Origin: Eledone cirrhosa
Lineage: Eukaryota
Direction: 5' to 3'
DNA: 64,000 bases
NCBI GenBank assembly: GCA_964016885.1
Contig: OZ024740.1
Coordinates: forward strand, 102,548,001-102,612,000
The position numbers were made by a program, and so were the translations under genes. Below are positions 7,005 through 51,288 of the stretch, piece after piece. The notes below the pieces were generated by a model, which was given only the letters and a program-made list of their open reading frames with translations, was not told the origin of the DNA and made no database searches. The stretch's first letter is position 1; each line of letters opens with the position of its first letter.

Positions 7005-7190
7005 CAAATATACACATACATACATATACATATATATATATATATACATACACACATATATATATATATATATACACACACATACATACATACACACATC
7101 CATACATATATATACATACACATACACACACCCACATACATATATACCCACACGTACATACATCCATACATACCTACACATATATGCGTG
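6375..7190. repeat. Degenerate (CA)/(TACA)/(TA) microsatellite
   Basis: Directly visible; opposite strand polarity to neighbouring TATG arrays. Confidence 0.9.
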
Positions 7191-7284
7191 TGTCTCACCG
7201 TTCACTCAGATATTCATGTGTACACATAAGAAGATGGGGGGGGGGGGGGTTAGTGAAATAGAATTTTACCTCCGAGTGTTAATT

Positions 7285-7285
7285 C

Positions 7286-7336
<51 letters not shown>

Positions 7337-23955: not shown

Positions 23956-24413
23956 CTTATTTTCTCTTTATTCTCCTCCCCACATCTTCTCTTTCTTTTG
24001 TTTTTATTCCTCTTTTCTCTTATATATTTTTTTCTTCATTTCTTCATTTCTTCATTTATTTATTCATTTAATTCATTTATTTATTTATTTATTTATTTGT
24101 TTATTTCTTGCCTTTTCCTACTTTAAGTTTATCATATTATTTGTGGTATAAAAACGTTGAGATTTGGTGAAATACATCACTGCCAATACTGGAATAGAAT
24201 AATCAAAACCGTAACGGTATGTCACATATCAAATCTTATATTTTGTCTGATGAAAACGTAGTTAAACACCAGTGTACCTTTGAAATATGTATAATAAAAT
24301 ATATATTTTGATTATGAGAATATTTTTCATTAATTAACATTTTGAATAATATGTATGTGTATATATATATATATATATATAAATGTGTGTGTGTGTGTGT
24401 ATATATATATTAT

Positions 24414-34600: not shown

Positions 34601-35224
34601 GTTATGTCTGACATAACTGAGGCTGTGTTTATGTAAGGACCTGAGATGTTATGTCTGACATAACTGAGGCTGTGTTTATGTAAGGACCTGAGATGTTATG
34701 TCTGACATAACTGAGGCTGTGTTTATGTAAGGACCTGAGATGTTGTGTCTGACATAACTGAGTCTGTGTTTATGTAAGGACCTGAGATGTTGTGTCTGAC
34801 ATAACTGAGTCTGTGTTTATGTAAGGACCTGAGATGTTGTGTCTGACATAACTGAGTCTGTGTTTATGTAAGGACCTGAGATGTTATGTCTGACATAACT
34901 GAGGCTGTGTTTATGTAAGGACCTGAGAGGTTGTGTCTGACATAACTGAGGCTGTGTTTATGTAAGGACCTGAGATGTTGTGTCTGACATAACTGAGTCT
35001 GTGTTTATGTAAGGACCTGAGATGTTGTGTCTGACATAACTGAGTCTGTGTTTATGTAAGGACCTGAGATGTTGTGTCTGACATAACTGAGTCTGTGTTT
35101 ATGTAAGGACTTGAGATGTTATGTCTGACATAACTGAGGCTGTGTTTATGTAAGGACCTGAGATGTTATGTCTGACATAACTGAGGCTGTGTTTAGGTGA
35201 GGACCTGAGAGGTTATGTCTGACG
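34601..35224. repeat. 47 bp minisatellite, about 13 units, with internal palindrome GTTATGTC-T-GACATAAC
   Basis: Unit gtt(a/g)tgtctgacataactgag(g/t)ctgtgtttatgtaaggacctgagat; no spacers. Confidence 0.95.
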
Positions 35225-35950
35225 TAAAAACCCAGCATCCACATACTCCCTCCACAACACTAATCTCAAGAAGTCTTCTTGTGAACGTGACCTGGGCATT
35301 ACTGTCAGCAGCGATTTAAATTGGACGCAGCACGTTGCTAAAATTGTCAAGAAGGCTGAGGGTGTCTTAGCATCACTCAGCAAGACCTTGTCAGCCGCTC
35401 TCCAGCTATCTATTTAAAGCTGTACATAGCTATGGTGCGGCCACACTTAGAATTTGCATTACCAGTCTGGAACCCCCATACTCTGACCACCTTGCTTCCC
35501 TGGGCATGGATACATTGAAGCTCCGACATCTTGCAACTGGCTTGGTAAACACCCACAAAATTATTAACCATCTTGCCAACAACAACCCTGAGTACCTTTT
35601 TGATTTTCATGTGTCTAACACACGTGGACATGCCTACAAAATCAGAAAACAGCACAGCTCCCATGACTTTCGGAAACATTTTTCCACGCTCAGAGTTGCT
35701 GAAGCATGGAATAAACTACCTGCATCAGTTATTGGCTGTCGAGACATAGCATCCTTTAAAACCCGCATGTTTCCTGAGATTTACCAACACTGCACCTGAT
35801 ATCCCCTTCCATACACACGCACACATGTATTTCATGACTCGTACACTGTTCATTTTCCTGACATTTGTACATTATTCTATGTACTATACATGCACCTTCG
35901 ATGAGTTGTAATGCACCTGAGCACTGTACACAATAATTTCATTATTATTA
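35225..35950 (+). mobile_element. CR1-clade 3' fragment
   Basis: MDTLKLRHLA..NTRGHAYKIRKQHSSHDFRKHF..AEAWNKLP plus tail. Confidence 0.88.
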
Positions 35951-37120
35951 TAATTGAGGCTAATTGTGTTTAGTTGAGACCAGACAGGTTAAATCTACTT
36001 TAAATTTATATATTAGTTTCCAGCCCTGTAATCTTTAATATGTATCTCTACACTTTCATAAGTATGTCTATAAAATTGCAACAACTTATAAGAATTATTA
36101 TGAAAGTTATGAAGAAAATAAGTGATGTTACTATTTTTGAAAACTCAGGTAAATATCACGGTCAAAGGGAGGTAAATATGAAACTTTTGACATTGCTTGT
36201 AAACATCTAAATGGTTAACAAAAATGCTAGAAACGTCAGCCGAACATTGAAATTTATATTTTTTTAAAATGCTAGACACAACAGCCAAATCTCCTTCAAA
36301 TCATACATTGTATTATATTCTATAATGATAGAAAGGAACCCACATCTCTGTTTTATTTATTTTAATGATGAACCAAGAAAAAAATATTCCCGTATACTTT
36401 CAATCAAAATTTATGGGGGATTGGTAGTATCGGTAGAGCGTCGGACAACATGCTTTACAGCATGGAGTACGTCCCTTTCCATTCTGAGTTTAAATCCCGC
36501 TGAGGTTAACTGTGTCATCGCATTTGGGAGGTGAATTGGGCAACACACAAACACACACACACACACACAGACTCAGACACACACACATATATATTGCCCA
36601 ATTGCACCTCTAAAAGGCGATGGCACAGTACCGAGATCTCTGGCGTTATGCAGTAAAACAGAAGACATGACTTGCCATGGGCACAGGCCGAAGCTGAAGC
36701 ATATATACAGTATACCCTGCCCCACCAACCCCTTCTACTGTATAGGGGTCGTGTAAATATGACGATGAAAAACACCCAGCCCACACTGTAACGTGGTCGT
36801 CGTATAGGTGTCACAACAAAAACACCCAGTCCATACTGAAAAGTTGTAGTGGGGGTATTACGACAAAAAGCAACCAGTACTCACTGTCAATGAGGACGGC
36901 GTTATGAAGGGCATCCAGCTATGGAAACCAAGGAAAAATCATTTCTGTATAAGTACAGCATGGTCAGCTGACCTAGTATTGCCTATAACAGGACAACTCG
37001 TCTAACCCATACTAGCATGGAAGAATGGACGTAAAACAGTGATGATGATGGTGATATATATATATATAAAATGTTGCTTACATAACTGAGGTTAATTGTG
37101 TTTAGGTGATGACCAGGTAG

Positions 37121-37744
37121 GTTATGTCTGACATAACTGAGGCTGTGTTTATGTAAGGACCTGAGATGTTATGTCTGACATAACTGAGGCTGTGTTTATG
37201 TAAGGACCTGAGATGTTATGTCTGACATAACTGAGGCTGTGTTTATGTAAGGACCTGAGATGTTGTGTCTGACATAACTGAGTCTGTGTTTATGTAAGGA
37301 CCTGAGATGTTGTGTCTGACATAACTGAGTCTGTGTTTATGTAAGGACCTGAGATGTTGTGTCTGACATAACTGAGTCTGTGTTTATGTAAGGACCTGAG
37401 ATGTTATGTCTGACATAACTGAGGCTGTGTTTATGTAAGGACCTGAGAGGTTGTGTCTGACATAACTGAGGCTGTGTTTATGTAAGGACCTGAGATGTTG
37501 TGTCTGACATAACTGAGTCTGTGTTTATGTAAGGACCTGAGATGTTGTGTCTGACATAACTGAGTCTGTGTTTATGTAAGGACCTGAGATGTTGTGTCTG
37601 ACATAACTGAGTCTGTGTTTATGTAAGGACTTGAGATGTTATGTCTGACATAACTGAGGCTGTGTTTATGTAAGGACCTGAGATGTTATGTCTGACATAA
37701 CTGAGGCTGTGTTTAGGTGAGGACCTGAGAGGTTATGTCTGACG
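37121..37744. repeat. Duplicate of the 47 bp minisatellite
   Basis: Same unit variant order as 34601-35224. Confidence 0.95.
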
Positions 37745-38470
37745 TAAAAACCCAGCATCCACATACTCCCTCCACAACACTAATCTCAAGAAGTCTTCTT
37801 GTGAACGTGACCTGGGCATTACTGTCAGCAGCGATTTAAATTGGACGCAGCACGTTGCTAAAATTGTCAAGAAGGCTGAGGGTGTCTTAGCATCACTCAG
37901 CAAGACCTTGTCAGCCGCTCTCCAGCTATCTATTTAAAGCTGTACATAGCTATGGTGCGGCCACACTTAGAATTTGCATTACCAGTCTGGAACCCCCATA
38001 CTCTGACCACCTTGCTTCCCTGGGCATGGATACATTGAAGCTCCGACATCTTGCAACTGGCTTGGTAAACACCCACAAAATTATTAACCATCTTGCCAAC
38101 AACAACCCTGAGTACCTTTTTGATTTTCATGTGTCTAACACACGTGGACATGCCTACAAAATCAGAAAACAGCACAGCTCCCATGACTTTCGGAAACATT
38201 TTTCCACGCTCAGAGTTGCTGAAGCATGGAATAAACTACCTGCATCAGTTATTGGCTGTCGAGACATAGCATCCTTTAAAACCCGCATGTTTCCTGAGAT
38301 TTACCAACACTGCACCTGATATCCCCTTCCATACACACGCACACATGTATTTCATGACTCGTACACTGTTCATTTTCCTGACATTTGTACATTATTCTAT
38401 GTACTATACATGCACCTTCGATGAGTTGTAATGCACCTGAGCACTGTACACAATAATTTCATTATTATTA
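37745..38470 (+). mobile_element. Duplicate CR1-clade 3' fragment
   Basis: Copy of 35225-35950. Confidence 0.88.
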
Positions 38471-39535
38471 TAATTGAGGCTAATTGTGTTTAGTTGAGAC
38501 CAGACAGGTTAAATCTACTTTAAATTTATATATTAGTTTCCAGCCCTGTAATCTTTAATATGTATCTCTACACTTTCATAAGTATGTCTATAAAATTGCA
38601 ACAACTTATAAGAATTATTATGAAAGTTATGAAGAAAATAAGTGATGTTACTATTTTTGAAAACTCAGGTAAATATCACGGTCAAAGGGAGGTAAATATG
38701 AAACTTTTGACATTGCTTGTAAACATCTAAATGGTTAACAAAAATGCTAGAAACGTCAGCCGAACATTGAAATTTATATTTTTTTTAAATGCTAGACACA
38801 ACAGCCAAATCTCCTTCAAATCATACATTGTATTTTATTTTATAATGATAGAAAGGAACCCAAATCTATGTTTTATTTATTTTAATGATGAATTAAGAAA
38901 AAAATATTTCAGTATAGTTTCAATCAAAAGTTATGGTGGATTGGCAGTATCGGTAGAGCGTCGGACACCATGCTTCGCAGCATGGAATACGGCCCTTTAC
39001 ATTCGAAGTTTAAATCCCGCTGAGGTTAACTGCATCATCGCCTTTGAGAGCTGAAATTGGACAATAGACATACACACACCTATATATATATATTGTCCAA
39101 TTGCACCTCTAAAAGGCGATGGCACAGTACCGAGATCTCTGGCGTTATGCAGTAAAACAGAAGACATGACTTGCCATTGGCACAGGCCGAAGCTGAAGCA
39201 TATATACAGTATACCCTGCCCCACCAGCGCCTTCTACTGTATAACGGTCGTGTAAGTATGACGATGAAGAACACCCAGCCCACACTGTAACGTGGTCGTG
39301 TAGGTGTCACAACAAAAACACCCAGTCCATACTGTAAAGTGGAGGTGGAGGTATCACGACAAAAAGCATCCAGTACTCTCTGTCAATGAGGACGGCGTTA
39401 TGAAGGGCATCCAGCTGTGGAAACCAAGCAAAAATCAGTCCTGTATAAGCCAAGCATGGTCACCTGACCTAGTATTGCCTATAACAGGACAACTCGTCTA
39501 ACCCATACTAGCATGGAAGAATGGACGTAAAACAG

Positions 39536-43308: not shown

Positions 43309-43341
43309 GTGTATATATATATATGTATATATATAGATATC

Positions 43342-43749
43342 TCCGGGAGAGATGACCCCTTAGCCTTTGTCAAGGCAGAATTCTAGGAGAAGGAAAACTG
43401 ATATAACACCTGCAACTCTGATGGTATCCAATGATGTTGATTTGTTCTTCTTTTTGGTAAATATCATCTTGGTTAAGAGAGTGGGACTGGCTTTGTGCAG
43501 TGCCTTTGCTCACTATAAAAGCTTCACGGCACAGGCATTGCTTTATATCTGGAGATCTCTCTGCACTTGTCGTCACATGGTACCATGGGCCCAGCACTAT
43601 GTGTCAATAATTGTCACAAGTGTAGTGTTTGTACCAGAGTTTTCTTGTCGCAGGCTGGACTAAAAAGTCACACTCGTTCAGCGCATCGGTAGGGTTTCTC
43701 CTACATGGATATAAAGTAGTGGCCGTACTCGAAAACGAGTTTGCAGCCA

Positions 43750-43751
<2 letters not shown>
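43342..43751 (+). mobile_element. Bipartite RTE-derived non-autonomous element
   Basis: Copy of 8248-8658 embedded in (TA)n. Confidence 0.75.
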
Positions 43752-43807
<56 letters not shown>

Positions 43808-44024
43808 ATATATATATATGTGTATATATATATGTATATGTATCCTTTCAACTTGTGCTTTCGTCTGTCCATCCTCAACAGTTCTTTTAAGGGCTATATG
43901 CGACAACAGTCCTTTTAAGGGCTATCTTCAGCTCTGATCAGGCCGTATGCGATAACAGTCCTTCTAAGGGCTATTCTCGGATCTGATCAGAAGTAGTGAC
44001 TAGACTGACTAACCACGTCGCTAC

Positions 44025-44539
44025 ACATATATGTATGTACATATACATACTTATATTTAAGTAAAAGCCGTACTAAGAGTGGGAAATGAAATTTCGTTTC
44101 ATTTTTTCCGTTTATCGTTTTCGGTTCAACCGGCCGATTAACTCACTCGATATGCAAATTGGGCTACTTAGCCGTTAATATGCATAAGGAAAGTATATAC
44201 TCTCTGACGTTCAACTATGTGGCAGGAAGGTATACGTTGCTGACGATAGCTGACAAACTTGAAACTAGTACAGCGTTCCTTTGTCAGTGTTGAACAAATG
44301 AGCAACGGTGGTTGCTAGACACTACGGCTTAATACGGGATGTTTGTTTACAAACTCACCGAGCATTATAATAACTGTTTGGTGAATCCATACGTACATAT
44401 ATATATGTGTGCATGTATGTATATATACATACCACTGTACGTCTGTATACATATATGTATGTACGTATACATACTTATATTTAAGTAACAGCCGTACTAA
44501 GAGTGGGCAATGAGATTTCGTTTCATTTTTTCCGTTTAT
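44025..44539 (+). mobile_element. Terminally redundant 424 bp ORF-less unit carrying a hammerhead (retrozyme / PLE pLTR-like)
   Basis: 91 bp direct repeats 44025-44115 and 44449-44539 (4 mismatches) with a ribozyme motif between them. Confidence 0.65.
44234..44276 (+). ncRNA. Minimal type I hammerhead ribozyme
   Basis: ACGTTG-CTGACGA-tAGcT/gaca/AaCTt-GAAA-CTAG-T-A-CAGCGT; 6 bp stem I, palindromic ACTAGT stem III, weakened stem II. Confidence 0.78.
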
Positions 44540-46194
<1,655 letters not shown>

Positions 46195-46759
46195 TGTATG
46201 TATGTATGTATGTATGTATGTATGTATGTATGTATGTATGTATGTATGTATGTATGTATGTATGTATGTATGTATGTATGTATGTATGTCCGGGAGAGAT
46301 GACCCCTTAGCCTTTGTCAAGGCAGAATTCTAGGAGAAGGAAAACTCTGATATAACACCTGCAACCCTGATGGTATCCAATGATGTTGACTTGTTCTTCT
46401 TTTTGGTAAATATCATCTTGGTTAAGAGAGTGGGTCTGGCTTTGTGCAGTGCCTTTGCTCACTATAAAAGCTTCACGGCACAGGCATTGCTTTGTATCTG
46501 GAGATCTCTCTGCACTTGTCGTCACATGGTACCATGGGCCCAGCACTATGTGTCAGTAATTGTCACAAGTGTAGTGTTTGTACCAGAGTTTTCAAGTCGC
46601 TGGCTGGACTAAAATGTCACACTCGTTCAGCGCATCGGTAGGGGTTCTCCTACATGGATATAAAGTAGTGGCCGTACTCGAAAACGAGTTGGCAGCCACC
46701 ATGTATGTATGTATGTATGTATGTATGTATGTATGTATGTATGTATGTATGTATGTATG

Positions 46760-46820
<61 letters not shown>

Positions 46821-46832
46821 ATATATATATAT

Positions 46833-47899
46833 AGGGTAGGAACTCCATTCTCTGCCCCAAATGCAAACAATGGGTACACAAGAGATGTAGCGGGATTTCA
46901 GGAAGCTTAATTAAGAATGTAGGATTCACATGTGCTGAAACAGCAAGCAAACAGCCACAGGAAACAAGTACCACCAATCTCTGGGAGGGCCCTGTAGAAA
47001 CAGTAGACAGCTTCTGCTACCTAGGTGACCGAATTAGCAACGGAGGTGGGTGCTCAGAAAGTACAATAACTAGGGTAAGAACGGGATGGAAGAAGTTTAG
47101 GGAACTACTACCACTGCTAGCTGCAAAAGGCTTCTCCCTCAGAATGAAAGGCAGACTGTATGATGCGTGTATCCGAACAGCGATGTTGCATGGTAGTGAG
47201 ACCTGGGCGCTGAAGGTGGAAGACTTACGTAGATTAGAGAGAAACGAAGCCTGCATGCTCCGATGGATGTGTAACAGTAATATACGTGAACGACAAAGCA
47301 TAAAGGAATTGAGAGAGAGACTGAGCATAAGAGGAATCAAATGCTGCGTGCAGGAGAGGCGGTTACGCTGGTATGGACATGTGATGCGTATGAAGGATGA
47401 CAGCTGCATAAAAAGGTGCAGAGCACTAGAAGTTGATGGAAACCGCGGAGTGGGGAGACCCAAGATGACTTGGGATGAGGTGATAAAAGCCGACCTTACC
47501 CAACTACACCTCTCAAAGTCAATGACACACGACCGTGACTTCTGGCGTCACGCAGTAATACAGGGTACCCGACCTCCCATGGGTACATGCTGAAGCATAT
47601 AAACAATATGCCCCCCCCCCCCCCCCCCCACCGCAAGGTGGTCGTGGAGGTGCCACGGCAAAAAAGCACCCAGCCCACACTGTAAAGTGGACGTGTAGGC
47701 GCCACGAAAAAGCACCCAGCACTCACTGTAAATGAGGTTGGTGTTAGGAAGGGCATCCAGCTGTAGAAATCAAGCCAGATCAGTTCCTGTATGAGCAAGG
47801 CATGGTCAGCCGACCAGACACTGCCCACAACAGGACAACCCGTCTAACCCATGCTAGCGTGGAAGAACGGACGTAAAACGGTGATGATGATGATGATAA

Positions 47900-47900
<1 letters not shown>
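46833..47900 (+). mobile_element. RTE LINE 3' fragment (subfamily A); duplicate at 49470-50530
   Basis: ORF 47144-47593 MKGRLYDACIRTAMLHGSETWALKVEDLRRLERNE...DRDFWR; 3' UTR ending (gat)n. Confidence 0.9.
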
Positions 47901-47948
<48 letters not shown>

Positions 47949-47949
<1 letters not shown>

Positions 47950-48640
47950 ATATATTTAGAAACACACAGATACATGCGGACACACACATATATACATGAA
48001 TGCATCCGCACCCAACTGTGAGTTAAGGGTGCCAACTTCACCGATGTTGCTCAATGAATGACCGGGACAGACCAATTCAGTTGAACCAGACTGAACCAGT
48101 ATCAGAGTTAAAAATACATTATGAAGAGAGAAGAAACATTTAGATATAATTAGTAATAAAATGTATCATACCTAAACTGTTCCTAAATTCCTCGACTACG
48201 TAGTTTCGTGGCATAAACAAAAACAATATATCATAAAGATATAGAGTCCCTGCGAGGTCTGCCGACTTATCAAGAGACGCGTCTACACGACGTGAGAAAG
48301 AATCCCAAAAGGCGGAGGGGGAGATAGTCACGCGATATAACGGTCGAGAAACAGAGCTAAGCCTCTTATAACCACGAAGAAAATACCACGGAGGTGGAAG
48401 GGGTATTCATATCGAGGCCGCAGAAGAGGTGGTGAAGAAGGCTAGAAGTATGAGTAAAGGAAGCTTTCCAGTTGTCCTCACACTTCAAAGATTGCTCGAC
48501 CAGAGGGAGTTATTAACAATATATTTAGAAACACACAGATACATGCGGACACACACATATATACATGAATGCATCCGCACCCAACTGTGGATACATTTTA
48601 TTACTAATTATATCTAAATGTTTCTTCTCTCTTCATAATG

Positions 48641-48642
<2 letters not shown>
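47949..48642 (-). mobile_element. 569 bp terminally redundant ORF-less unit with inverted cap and degenerate hammerhead; duplicate at 50597-51290
   Basis: 72 bp direct repeats 47949-48020 and 48518-48589; 53 bp inverted pair 48115-48167 and 48590-48642; hammerhead-like motif 48190-48277. Confidence 0.62.
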
Positions 48643-48675
<33 letters not shown>

Positions 48676-48678
48676 GTA

Positions 48679-48710
<32 letters not shown>

Positions 48711-48800
48711 TATATATATATATGTATATATATATATATGTATATATATATATGTATATATATATATATGTATATATATATATGTATATATATATATATG

Positions 48801-48914
<114 letters not shown>

Positions 48915-49394
48915 TGTATGTCCGGGAGAGATGACCCCTTAGCCTTTGTCAAGGCAGAATTCTAGGAGAAGGAAAACTCTGATATAACACCTGCAACCCT
49001 GATGGTATCCAATGATGTTGACTTGTTCTTCTTTTTGGTAAATATCATCTTGGTTAAGAGAGTGAGACTGGCTTTGTGCAGTGCCTTTGCTCACTATAAA
49101 AGCTTCACGGCACAGGCATTGCTTTATATCTGGACTCTCTCTGCACTTGTCGTCACATGGTACCATGGGCCCAGCACTATGTGTCAGTAATTGTCACAAG
49201 TGTAGTGTTTGTACCAGAGTTTTCAAGTCGCTGGCTGGACTAAAAAGTCACACTCGTTCAGCGCATCGGTAGGGGTTCTCCTACATGGATATAAAGTAGT
49301 GGCCGTACTCGAAAACGAGTTGGCAGCCACCATGTATGTATGTATGTATGTATGTATGTATGTATGTATGTATGTATGTATGTATGTATGTATG

Positions 49395-49457
<63 letters not shown>

Positions 49458-50529
49458 ATATATATATATAGGGTAGGAACTCCATTCTCTGCCCCAAATG
49501 CAAACAATGGGTACACAAGAGATGTAGCGGGATTTCAGGAAGCTTAATTAAGAATGTAGGATTCACATGTGCTGAAACAGCAAGCAAACAGCCACAGGAA
49601 ACAAGTACCACCAATCTCTGGGAGGGCCCTGTAGAAACAGTAGACAGCTTCTGCTACCTAGGTGACCGAATTAGCAACGGAGGTGGGTGCTCAGAAAGTA
49701 CAATAACTAGGGTAAGAACGGGATGGAAGAAGTTTAGGGAACTACTACCACTGCTAGCTGCAAAAGGCTTCTCCCTCAGAATGAAAGGCAGACTGTATGA
49801 TGCGTGTATCCGAACAGCGATGTTGCATGGTAGTGAGACCTGGGCGCTGAAGGTGGAAGACTTACGTAGATTAGAGAGAAACGAAGCCTGCATGCTCCGA
49901 TGGATGTGTAACAGTAATATACGTGAACGACAAAGCATAAAGGAATTGAGAGAGAGACTGAGCATAAGAGGAATCAAATGCTGCGTGCAGGAGAGGCGGT
50001 TACGCTGGTATGGACATGTGATGCGTATGAAGGATGACAGCTGCATAAAAAGGTGCAGAGCACTAGAAGTTGATGGAAACCGCGGAGTGGGGAGACCCAA
50101 GATGACTTGGGATGAGGTGATAAAAGCCGACCTTACCCAACTACACCTCTCAAAGTCAATGACACACGACCGTGACTTCTGGCGTCACGCAGTAATACAG
50201 GGTACCCGACCTCCCATGGGTACATGCTGAAGCATATAAACAATATGCCCCCCCCCCCCACCGCAAGGTGGTCGTGGAGGTGCCACGGCAAAAAAGCACC
50301 CAGCCCACACTGTAAAGTGGACGTGTAGGCGCCACGAAAAAGCACCCAGCACTCACTGTAAATGAGGTTGGTGTTAGGAAGGGCATCCAGCTGTAGAAAT
50401 CAAGCCAGATCAGTTCCTGTATGAGCAAGGCATGGTCAGCCGACCAGACACTGCCCACAACAGGACAACCCGTCTAACCCATGCTAGCGTGGAAGAACGG
50501 ACGTAAAACGGTGATGATGATGATGATAA

Positions 50530-50597
<68 letters not shown>

Positions 50598-51288
50598 ATA
50601 TATTTAGAAACACACAGATACATGCGGACACACACATATATACATGAATGCATCCGCACCCAACTGTGAGTTAAGGGTGCCAACTTCACCGATGTTGCTC
50701 AATGAATGACCGGGACAGACCAATTCAGTTGAACCAGACTGAACCAGTATCAGAGTTAAAAATACATTATGAAGAGAGAAGAAACATTTAGATATAATTA
50801 GTAATAAAATGTATCATACCTAAACTGTTCCTAAATTCCTCGACTACGTAGTTTCGTGGCATAAACAAAAACAATATATCATAAAGATATAGAGTCCCTG
50901 CGAGGTCTGCCGACTTATCAAGAGACGCGTCTACACGACGTGAGAAAGAATCCCAAAAGGCGGAGGGGGAGATAGTCACGCGATATAACGGTCGAGAAAC
51001 AGAGCTAAGCCTCTTATAACCACGAAGAAAATACCACGGAGGTGGAAGGGGTATTCATATCGAGGCCGCAGAAGAGGTGGTGAAGAAGGCTAGAAGTATG
51101 AGTAAAGGAAGCTTTCCAGTTGTCCTCACATTTCAAAGATTGCTCGACCAGAGGGAGTTATTAACAATATATTTAGAAACACACAGATACATGCGGACAC
51201 ACACATATATACATGAATGCATCCGCACCCAACTGTGGATACATTTTATTACTAATTATATCTAAATGTTTCTTCTCTCTTCATAATG

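What the first reader, a model, noticed from the sequence alone, without database searches (positions are those of the whole stretch)
44025..44539. Monomer-plus-overlap unit resembling a cDNA of a circular ribozyme RNA
A 424 bp non-coding monomer whose first 91 bp recur at its end, with a minimal hammerhead (predicted cut after GUA at 44270) in the middle. This is the pattern expected from reverse transcription running slightly more than once around a circle, or from a partial tandem pLTR. Octamer-like ATGCAAAT occurs at 44152.
Basis: partly seen in the sequence, partly recalled or inferred. Interest (0 to 1): 0.7.

Follow-up and report, generated by a model that had tools for sequence, protein, structure and literature searches.

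The report
Decayed Penelope-type hammerhead retrozyme copy
This is one aged copy of a small non-coding repeat with a predicted self-cutting RNA motif, present thousands of times in this animal genome and likely written into DNA by Penelope-type jumping-gene enzymes; its 90-base overlap was likely set by a later, unrelated insertion, so it does not show that a circular RNA was copied.

Summary
The repeat is real (424-bp period, 87 of 91 bases alike) and so is the type I hammerhead. It is one copy of a family with thousands of copies. The copies are not free circular permutations: 3' ends fall at two fixed sites about 59 bp apart before (TA)n, and 49 of 55 two-armed insertions pair one end of each kind, the Penelope 'tail' signature. 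An intact young Penelope-like element in this genome shows the same grammar, but shares no sequence with the unit. 5' ends are scattered, with no pile-up at the predicted cut site, so the RNA template likely had that junction intact (circle or uncut multimer). This copy cannot decide: its 5' end is the exact end of a Ty3/Gypsy-like LTR, and one helix II pair is broken. In a very young sister family some insertions fit one circle, others need mixed templates. Verdict: a new member of the metazoan non-LTR retrozymes; expression, cleavage and circles untested. The scan found this family and its sisters before on other DNA of this genome.

The parts
43752..43843 (.). (TA)n run left of the LTR piece
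43843..44025 (+). Last 183 bp of the ~500-bp LTR (TGTA...TACA) of a Ty3/Gypsy-like retrotransposon; its end abuts the retrozyme directly. The rest of the LTR and the internal region are not in the window
   Evidence: 98.9% to the LTR of L071; L071 has two LTRs 4854 bp apart around RT, RNase H and integrase frames
44026..44115 (+). Partial retrozyme unit (unit positions 335-424), the 'overlap'; 4 differences from its twin, none shared as private variants
44116..44539 (+). Full 424-bp retrozyme unit, about 4% from its best relatives; folds far better than shuffles (z -5.8)
44152..44159 (+). Octamer ATGCAAAT, kept in 179 of 202 family units whose flanks were found and at the same place in two diverged families; promoter role inferred
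44227..44281 (+). Type I hammerhead: helix I 44234-44239/44271-44276 with upper extension, core 44240-44246, helix II 44247-44260 (U.U at the base), GAAA 44261-44264, palindromic helix III ACUAGU, predicted cut 44270|44271. This copy has A at 44257 where 292 of 301 family units have G, which breaks a helix II pair
44476..44483 (+). Short 3' end site (unit 365-368, ...CATACTT|ATAT), read through in this copy
   Evidence: 2805 exact hits of the terminal form
44481..44539 (+). Optional ~59-bp 'tail' ending at the long 3' end site (...CCGTTT|AT), where this copy ends
   Evidence: 3650 exact hits of the terminal form
44540..45524 (.). (TA)n run, the likely insertion target
   Evidence: 87 of 91 long ends and 79 of 86 short ends have a TA-rich 3' flank (partly by selection)

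Best explanation
This is an aged, probably dead copy of a high-copy 424-bp non-coding hammerhead repeat (a non-LTR retrozyme) that was likely inserted by the reverse transcriptase/endonuclease of a (TA)n-targeting Penelope-like element, and whose left part was likely cut off by a later Ty3/Gypsy-like LTR insertion. Steps. (1) Shown: thousands of dispersed copies, monomer fragments to long arrays. (2) Inferred: arrays are transcribed, probably from an internal octamer-containing promoter upstream of the ribozyme. (3) Predicted: the hammerhead, with its 2-bp palindromic helix III, cuts efficiently only as a dimer, so multimers yield unit RNAs that may circularise. (4) Shown as a footprint, enzyme inferred: copying starts at one of two fixed internal sites joined to (TA)n, often at both, one from each side of the break, giving two opposed arms with one long and one short end. 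(5) Shown: copying crosses the cut site without a pile-up of ends and stops at a near-constant rate (about 0.3 per 100 nt); so the template likely had intact junctions. I judge that circles serve in some insertions and uncut or mixed multimers in others. (6) Shown: an LTR end sits exactly at 44025|44026; inferred: the LTR element integrated into this copy and the left part was later lost. With a single, damaged hammerhead this copy would not release a unit RNA.
For: Copy number: 7107 exact hits of a 23-mer, 0 for the reversed control; 2710 of one 31-nt hammerhead variant. Ends: of 117 uncensored insertions from 120 loci, 55 are two-armed; 49 of 55 pair a long with a short end, none has two of the same kind. 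Same in the young sister family, 14 of 15 simple two-armed loci, and in a young autonomous element with a 785-codon frame, 5 of 5 loci with both outer ends in view. Published PLE traits match: tail on one end only, inverted 5' copy, (TA)n target (PMC8557442 passages); two internal RT start sites explain the tail and uncut RNA is the main substrate in vitro (PMC11167929 parts 1-2). 5' ends: 5 seen against 5.3 expected at unit 150-165; 94 of 151 arms cross the cut site, 16 twice. Ribozyme: 7 of 16 pairs change on both sides in 10 hand-picked sequences, 0 of 500 shuffles reach this, slid controls far lower. LTR: 4-bp target duplications; in L120 the whole element lies inside a retrozyme copy with family sequence on both sides; L153 and L154 have the LTR end against the same CATATATG.
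Against: No autonomous partner identified: the one family tested shares no sequence with the unit, and a profile search of the fetched loci showed only further non-coding relatives in the 40 of 84 rows printed. The end census was drawn with terminal patterns, so one end of each insertion is fixed by selection; only the second arm is a free test (drawn with an internal pattern, shows the same ends but was read by eye). All census loci are the first hits on one contig. The minimum-energy fold of this copy's ribozyme region is not the hammerhead (5.3 kcal/mol above it). Much of the covariation comes from one sister-family sequence, and relatedness inflates the shuffle test. The left side of the LTR insertion is missing, so its target duplication cannot be seen here. 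No RNA data.
Confidence: 0.85

Rival explanations
1. Template sub-model A (first reader, and Cervera and de la Pena's proposal): every insertion is copied from one monomer RNA circle, the enzyme going round more than once.
For: No pile-up at the cut site. In the young sister family one dimorphic letter is uniform within 12 of the 13 loci that carry it; L313 has two private variants in all 4 covering units of both arms, L275 one in 2 of 2. In the window's family units of one insertion swap alleles at 18 dimorphic sites in 61 of 758 (same arm) and 51 of 870 (opposite arms) comparisons, against 37% expected for random pairs. Unit folds stably as a circle. Circles are shown by northern blot for coral, mussel and axolotl retrozymes (PMC7229834 parts 2-4).
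Against: 8 of 20 sister loci carry a variant in some but not all covering units, and in 3 of them (L295, L299, L309) it is in both arms, which one monomer circle cannot give without template switching or later DNA exchange. This window copy's overlap shares no private variant between its two copies. Uncut linear RNA is the main substrate of the one PLE tested in vitro.
Confidence: 0.3
2. Template sub-model B: only uncut linear multimer transcripts of existing arrays are copied; arrays grow by DNA-level duplication, and circles, if they exist, are a by-product.
For: Explains variants carried by runs of adjacent units and by both arms, dimer-periodic arrays (L076, L299) and the crossing of the cut site; agrees with PMC11167929.
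Against: L313-type insertions (all units share new variants) and the uniform dimorphic letter need a way to multiply one unit. No 5' flank carried along from a source locus was demonstrated (one search found none for this copy). The ribozyme fold is kept across three diverged families, so cutting matters at some step.
Confidence: 0.25
3. The LTR piece and the retrozyme came in together as one 5'-transduced insertion, copied from an LTR-driven read-through RNA of another locus; this would prove a linear uncut template for this copy.
For: LTR piece plus 1.2 units lie between two (TA)n runs; the LTR is cut short on its 5' side; no left part of the LTR or of the retrozyme lies in the 43 kb upstream.
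Against: A junction search with 1 mismatch found only two other places, both with other LTR variants or orientation; the best other family copy is 96% alike while the LTR piece is 99% alike to its family, so no recent source locus is in the assembly (40 of 2048 candidates scored).
Confidence: 0.12
4. Cut linear monomers are copied, with the enzyme jumping from the 5' end of one to the 3' end of the next.
For: Would give mixed units within one arm; a weak A>G over T>C excess on the ribozyme strand (166 vs 106, ratio 1.5) fits an RNA stage.
Against: No excess of 5' ends at or just after the cut (5 seen, 15 expected at unit 156-199); 3' ends lie 210 and 269 nt inside the unit, not at the cut; G>A over C>T is skewed about as much (1.4), so the spectrum is not specific.
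Confidence: 0.1
5. A local tandem duplication or an ordinary satellite/SINE fragment with a chance hammerhead-like string.
For: No Rfam hit; this copy's minimum-energy fold is not a hammerhead.
Against: Thousands of dispersed copies with fixed ends; compensatory changes in helices I and II; same core in diverged families.
Confidence: 0.02

Closest known systems
Metazoan non-LTR retrozymes (Cervera and de la Pena 2020, PMC7229834, parts 2-4 of 6 read; Li, Clavereau and Pollet 2026, 10.64898/2026.07.22.740005, parts 1-3 of 5 read)
   Same: Tandem and dispersed non-coding units of a few hundred bases, low GC, one type I hammerhead per unit, highly paired fold, co-occurrence with PLEs. The axolotl HHR_Amex2 motif has the same U.U at the base of helix II and a 2-bp helix III.
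   Different: Here the insertion footprint (two fixed 3' ends, opposed arms, (TA)n target) points straight at a PLE enzyme; the parts read argue for PLEs from shared motifs, co-occurrence and pLTR homology. No pLTR homology to an autonomous element was found here, and no RNA was seen.
EN+ Penelope-like elements, especially the Hydra clade (Craig et al. 2021, PMC8557442, passages) and the anole Poseidon studied in vitro (Frangieh et al. 2024, PMC11167929, parts 1-2 of 4)
   Same: Partial tandems, inverted 5'-truncated second arm, tail on one end only, two internal RT start sites downstream of a hammerhead, AT-rich or (TA)n target.
   Different: No ORF; tail about 59 bp rather than 30-40; canonical rather than minimal hammerhead; whole element is the repeat unit.
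Non-autonomous Chlamys elements such as MRC1 (PMC8557442, passage)
   Same: Non-autonomous PLE passengers with head-to-tail multi-copy insertions.
   Different: Those resemble their partner at the 3' end and the clade lacks canonical hammerheads.
Newt satellite 2 (seen only as cited in PMC7229834 and PMC2220036; the original, PMC308520, is not held)
   Same: Hammerhead satellite with weak helix III that cleaves as a dimer; reported internal snRNA-type promoter.
   Different: That its promoter includes an octamer is recalled, not read; no promoter test here.

Membership tests
Metazoan non-LTR retrozyme | Short (150-450 bp) repeat unit in tandem and dispersed copies | tested here: met
   424 bp; arrays of 2 to over 30 units and thousands of dispersed copies
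Metazoan non-LTR retrozyme | One type I hammerhead per unit with intact core and three helices | tested here: met
   Core letters 91-99% conserved across about 200 units; covariation. This copy has one helix II pair broken
Metazoan non-LTR retrozyme | Non-coding, no LTR/PBS/PPT of its own | tested here: met
   Longest ATG frame 49 codons; the adjacent LTR belongs to a separate element. PBS and PPT were not searched separately
Metazoan non-LTR retrozyme | Self-cleavage | not testable with these tools
   Predicted only; 8 of 9 predicted Xenopus elements did not cleave in vitro
Metazoan non-LTR retrozyme | Expressed as linear and circular unit RNAs | not testable with these tools
   No RNA holder listed; no evidence either way
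PLE-mobilised element | Two fixed 3' ends (tail on one end), inverted second arm, random 5' truncation | tested here: met
   49 of 55 two-armed insertions; sister family 14 of 15
PLE-mobilised element | Microsatellite (TA)n target | tested here: met
   166 of 177 classed ends have TA-rich 3' flanks (one end per insertion chosen so)
PLE-mobilised element | Active EN+ PLE in the genome | tested here: met
   117 scored matches at 97-100% aa identity, many in a 785-codon open frame; RWK, DKT, CxCx5C motifs as described for Hydra; Atlas neighbours carry PF26215, RVT_1, some GIY-YIG. Pfam itself hit only 1 of 9 PLE-like fragments, weakly
PLE-mobilised element | Homology to the pLTR of an autonomous partner | tested here: inconclusive
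   One family tested, no similarity above shuffles; many other PLE families seen only as fragments
Autonomous PLE / pLTR of one | RT plus GIY-YIG ORF joined to the repeat | tested here: not met
   Copies end in (TA)n, in an inverted arm or in unrelated flanks; PLE frames nearby are separate insertions across TA runs. A rare ORF-bearing copy elsewhere in the genome is not excluded
Minimal PLE hammerhead (PMC4209133) | Long helix II (7-8 bp), short helix I, no helix III | tested here: not met
   Helix II 3 bp plus U.U, helix I 6 bp plus extension, 2-bp palindromic helix III

The most novel reading that the evidence does not exclude
A self-transcribing ribozyme replicon: an octamer-type internal promoter kept across three diverged families drives multimers, the hammerhead makes unit RNAs and circles, and a Penelope-type enzyme pair with no sequence kinship to the passenger copies them from both sides of a (TA)n break, rolling round one circle in some insertions and switching between different RNAs in others. 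Young insertions in this genome then record the template type unit by unit, which makes the long-assumed circle-to-DNA step testable from sequence.
Probability: 0.35. Interest if true: 0.65.

Novelty: new member of a known kind. Interest (0 to 1): 0.38.

Why it matters
How animal hammerhead repeats return to DNA is proposed rather than shown in the papers read. The family's ends give direct genomic support for a Penelope-type enzyme, and the young sister family offers material to test circle against linear template. This particular copy adds little: it is old, damaged and truncated by another element. It is a useful warning that 'one unit plus a short overlap' is not a fingerprint of a circular template.

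Tried and rejected
Rfam: no hammerhead family hit. RNA runs: no RNA holder listed; three runs of unknown kind, one sample, hold family and LTR words, show the long 3' end running into (TA)n and confirm that this copy's A at 44257 is a minority letter, but no listed piece bridges the LTR junction, which proves nothing. The upstream 180 bp as part of an autonomous Penelope partner: rejected, it is a Ty3/Gypsy-like LTR. Source locus for a transduction: not found. Pile-up of 5' ends at the cut, which a small sample seemed to suggest: gone in the larger census; there is instead a mild excess at unit 111-155 (21 vs 13.5, p 0.035 uncorrected) and a deficit at 156-199; the ruler was this aged copy, so some 5' ends (for example at 15 and 55) may be alignment artefacts. 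Partner search by profile and by local alignment: nothing; the high local scores were an artefact of masked letters matching and were corrected, and the rows labelled END_short followed by TTTTT are internal sites. RNA-editing signature (lead from e1-8803865): weak and unspecific. Rows dropped: 5 edge-touching insertions of 122; 13 complex insertions and ends outside the two classes from the 5'-end count; TA-rich columns 268-368 from variant counts; L296 from the sister tally because it continues L295. Literature: 7 searches; none listed a paper describing this family or the tail signature in hammerhead retrozymes, but subscription journals, repeat databases and supplements (bioRxiv ones closed, others not opened) were not seen. 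The newt promoter paper was not held.

Full report
Observation. The repeat is as described: 44015-44115 recurs at 44439-44539, period 424, and 44025-44115 matches its twin at 87 of 91 bases. The hammerhead core lies at 44240-44270 and the octamer at 44152-44159. Rfam has no matching family. The unit has no frame over 49 codons and folds much better than shuffles (z -5.8, 0 of 100), partly through a long TA-rich hairpin.

A large family. A DNA search of the own genome scored 40 of 2048 candidates; the best other copy is 96% alike. A 23-mer from the unit has 7107 exact hits (reversed control 0) and one 31-nt form of the ribozyme 2710; a second loop form is about as common in the fetched loci. 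Copies range from fragments to arrays of over 30 units.

The ribozyme. Typical copies have helix I of 6 bp with an upper extension, helix II of 3 bp over a U.U pair, and a 2-bp palindromic helix III. That is the canonical metazoan type I shape, which needs two copies to cut well (PMC4209133 passages); axolotl HHR_Amex2 has the same U.U (PMC7229834 part 3). In 10 hand-picked sequences from subfamilies and one sister family, 7 of 16 pairs change on both sides, 0 of 500 shuffles reach that and slid controls are much lower; relatedness and the single distant sequence weaken this. The window copy has A at 44257 where 292 of 301 units have G, which breaks a helix II pair, and its best fold is not the hammerhead. 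With one damaged ribozyme it is probably dead. Cleavage is untested.

The ends. Copies are not free permutations. 3' ends fall at unit position 365-368 or 424 and run into (TA)n; the two terminal forms have 2805 and 3650 exact hits. I mapped 120 loci drawn with these two patterns: 122 distinct insertions, 5 dropped for touching an edge, leaving 55 two-armed, 49 single and 13 complex. In 49 of 55 two-armed insertions one arm has the long end and the other the short end; none has two alike; 6 have one unclassed end. One end is fixed by selection, the other is a free test. This is the Penelope tail found on one end only (PMC8557442 passages), which in vitro equals the stretch between two internal start sites of the enzyme (PMC11167929 parts 1-2). 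A very young 469-bp sister family, 285 of 479 columns alike, repeats the pattern in 14 of 15 simple two-armed loci. A young autonomous element with a 785-codon frame and Hydra-clade motifs (Atlas) does so in 5 of 5 loci with both outer ends in view. It shares no sequence with either unit, so it is a positive control for the grammar, not a named partner.

The 5' ends. Among 151 arms, ends are spread at roughly 0.3 per 100 nt; 5 fall at unit 150-165 around the cut against 5.3 expected; 94 arms cross the cut and 16 cross it twice. 46 of 151 are longer than one unit, as a constant stop rate predicts, and 22 are 424-560 nt long like this one. The template therefore likely had intact junctions: a circle or an uncut multimer.

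Why this copy's overlap is not diagnostic. Bases 43843-44025 are the last 183 bp of the LTR of a Ty3/Gypsy-like element, and the LTR's terminal TACA abuts the retrozyme at 44026. This element makes 4-bp target duplications at TA-rich sites; in L120 it lies wholly inside a retrozyme copy, and L153 and L154 show its end against the same CATATATG stretch. The LTR piece is 99% like its family, the retrozyme 96%, so the LTR likely came later. The left part of both is missing from the window. Transduction from another locus is the alternative; no source was found.

Circle or linear. In the window's family, units of one insertion differ by 3.3-4.2% against 7.1% for random pairs (overlapping loci counted more than once in places) and seldom mix subfamily alleles, so both arms come from one RNA or one locus, but age blurs the rest. 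In 20 young sister loci, chosen for being multi-unit and near-identical: one dimorphic letter is uniform in 12 of 13 carriers and L313 has two private variants in all four units of both arms, as a circle predicts; but 8 of 20 carry a variant in some units only, 3 of them in both arms, which needs mixed templates or later DNA exchange. I commit to a mix of circles and multimers and hold a pure monomer-circle model at 0.3. Earlier notes of this scan lean more to the circle; this is where my reading differs.

The octamer. It is exact in 179 of 202 units whose flanks were found and sits at the same place before the ribozyme in the sister family and a third, more distant one. Newt satellite 2 is reported to use an internal snRNA-type promoter (citing passage in PMC2220036). 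A promoter role here is inferred.

Verdict. A new member of the metazoan non-LTR retrozymes, with a clear Penelope footprint at family level. The class and the circle model are in print; my 7 searches listed no paper giving the tail evidence for hammerhead retrozymes, within the limits of the library. The scan had already noted this family and its sisters elsewhere in the genome; nothing near this place. The host species was not determined here. Interest 0.38.

Noticed in passing
L234:1218-1856; L295-L314: Very young 469-bp sister retrozyme family, copies 99-100% alike, arrays up to about 15 units, ends at 224-231 and 296-299 nt after the cut site.
   Followed up: yes
L242:130-480; L004:2215-2395: Third, more distant hammerhead family with two octamers in L242 and the same block before the ribozyme.
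   Followed up: partly
L328:1865-8873; L327-L341: Young autonomous Penelope-like family with Hydra-clade motifs, 3578-bp unit, 785-codon frame, minimal hammerhead-like motif upstream of the frame, two 3' ends 116 bp apart, (TA)n target.
   Followed up: partly
L071:1930-7282; L120; L153; L154: Ty3/Gypsy-like family with ~500-bp LTRs and 4-bp target duplications that sits in (TA)n and repeatedly inside retrozyme copies, three times at the same CATATATG palindrome; L154 also seems to have a second LTR type nested in the first.
   Followed up: partly
window 43341-43752, 46290-46702, 48922-49332: Three copies of a ~410-bp piece that looks like the 3' end of a LINE (zinc-finger-like end recalled, not tested), all starting at the same base and flanked by (TA)n or (ATGT)n.
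   Followed up: no
window 46290-50700 and 34601-38590: Near-identical tandem blocks of about 2.6 kb and 2.5 kb (each of the latter with a 47-bp minisatellite); recent duplications or assembly effects.
   Followed up: no
window 24248-24293: Another minimal hammerhead-like motif followed by an AT-rich tail and (TA)n; dozens of related motifs occur in the fetched loci.
   Followed up: no
window 7098-7290; L264:223-382: A repeat end shared with another locus, running into (TA)n and weakly matching the retrozyme profile (E 2e-4); possibly the tail of a further family.
   Followed up: no
window 46021-46078: tRNA-like match on the minus strand (32 bits), probably the head of a SINE.
   Followed up: no
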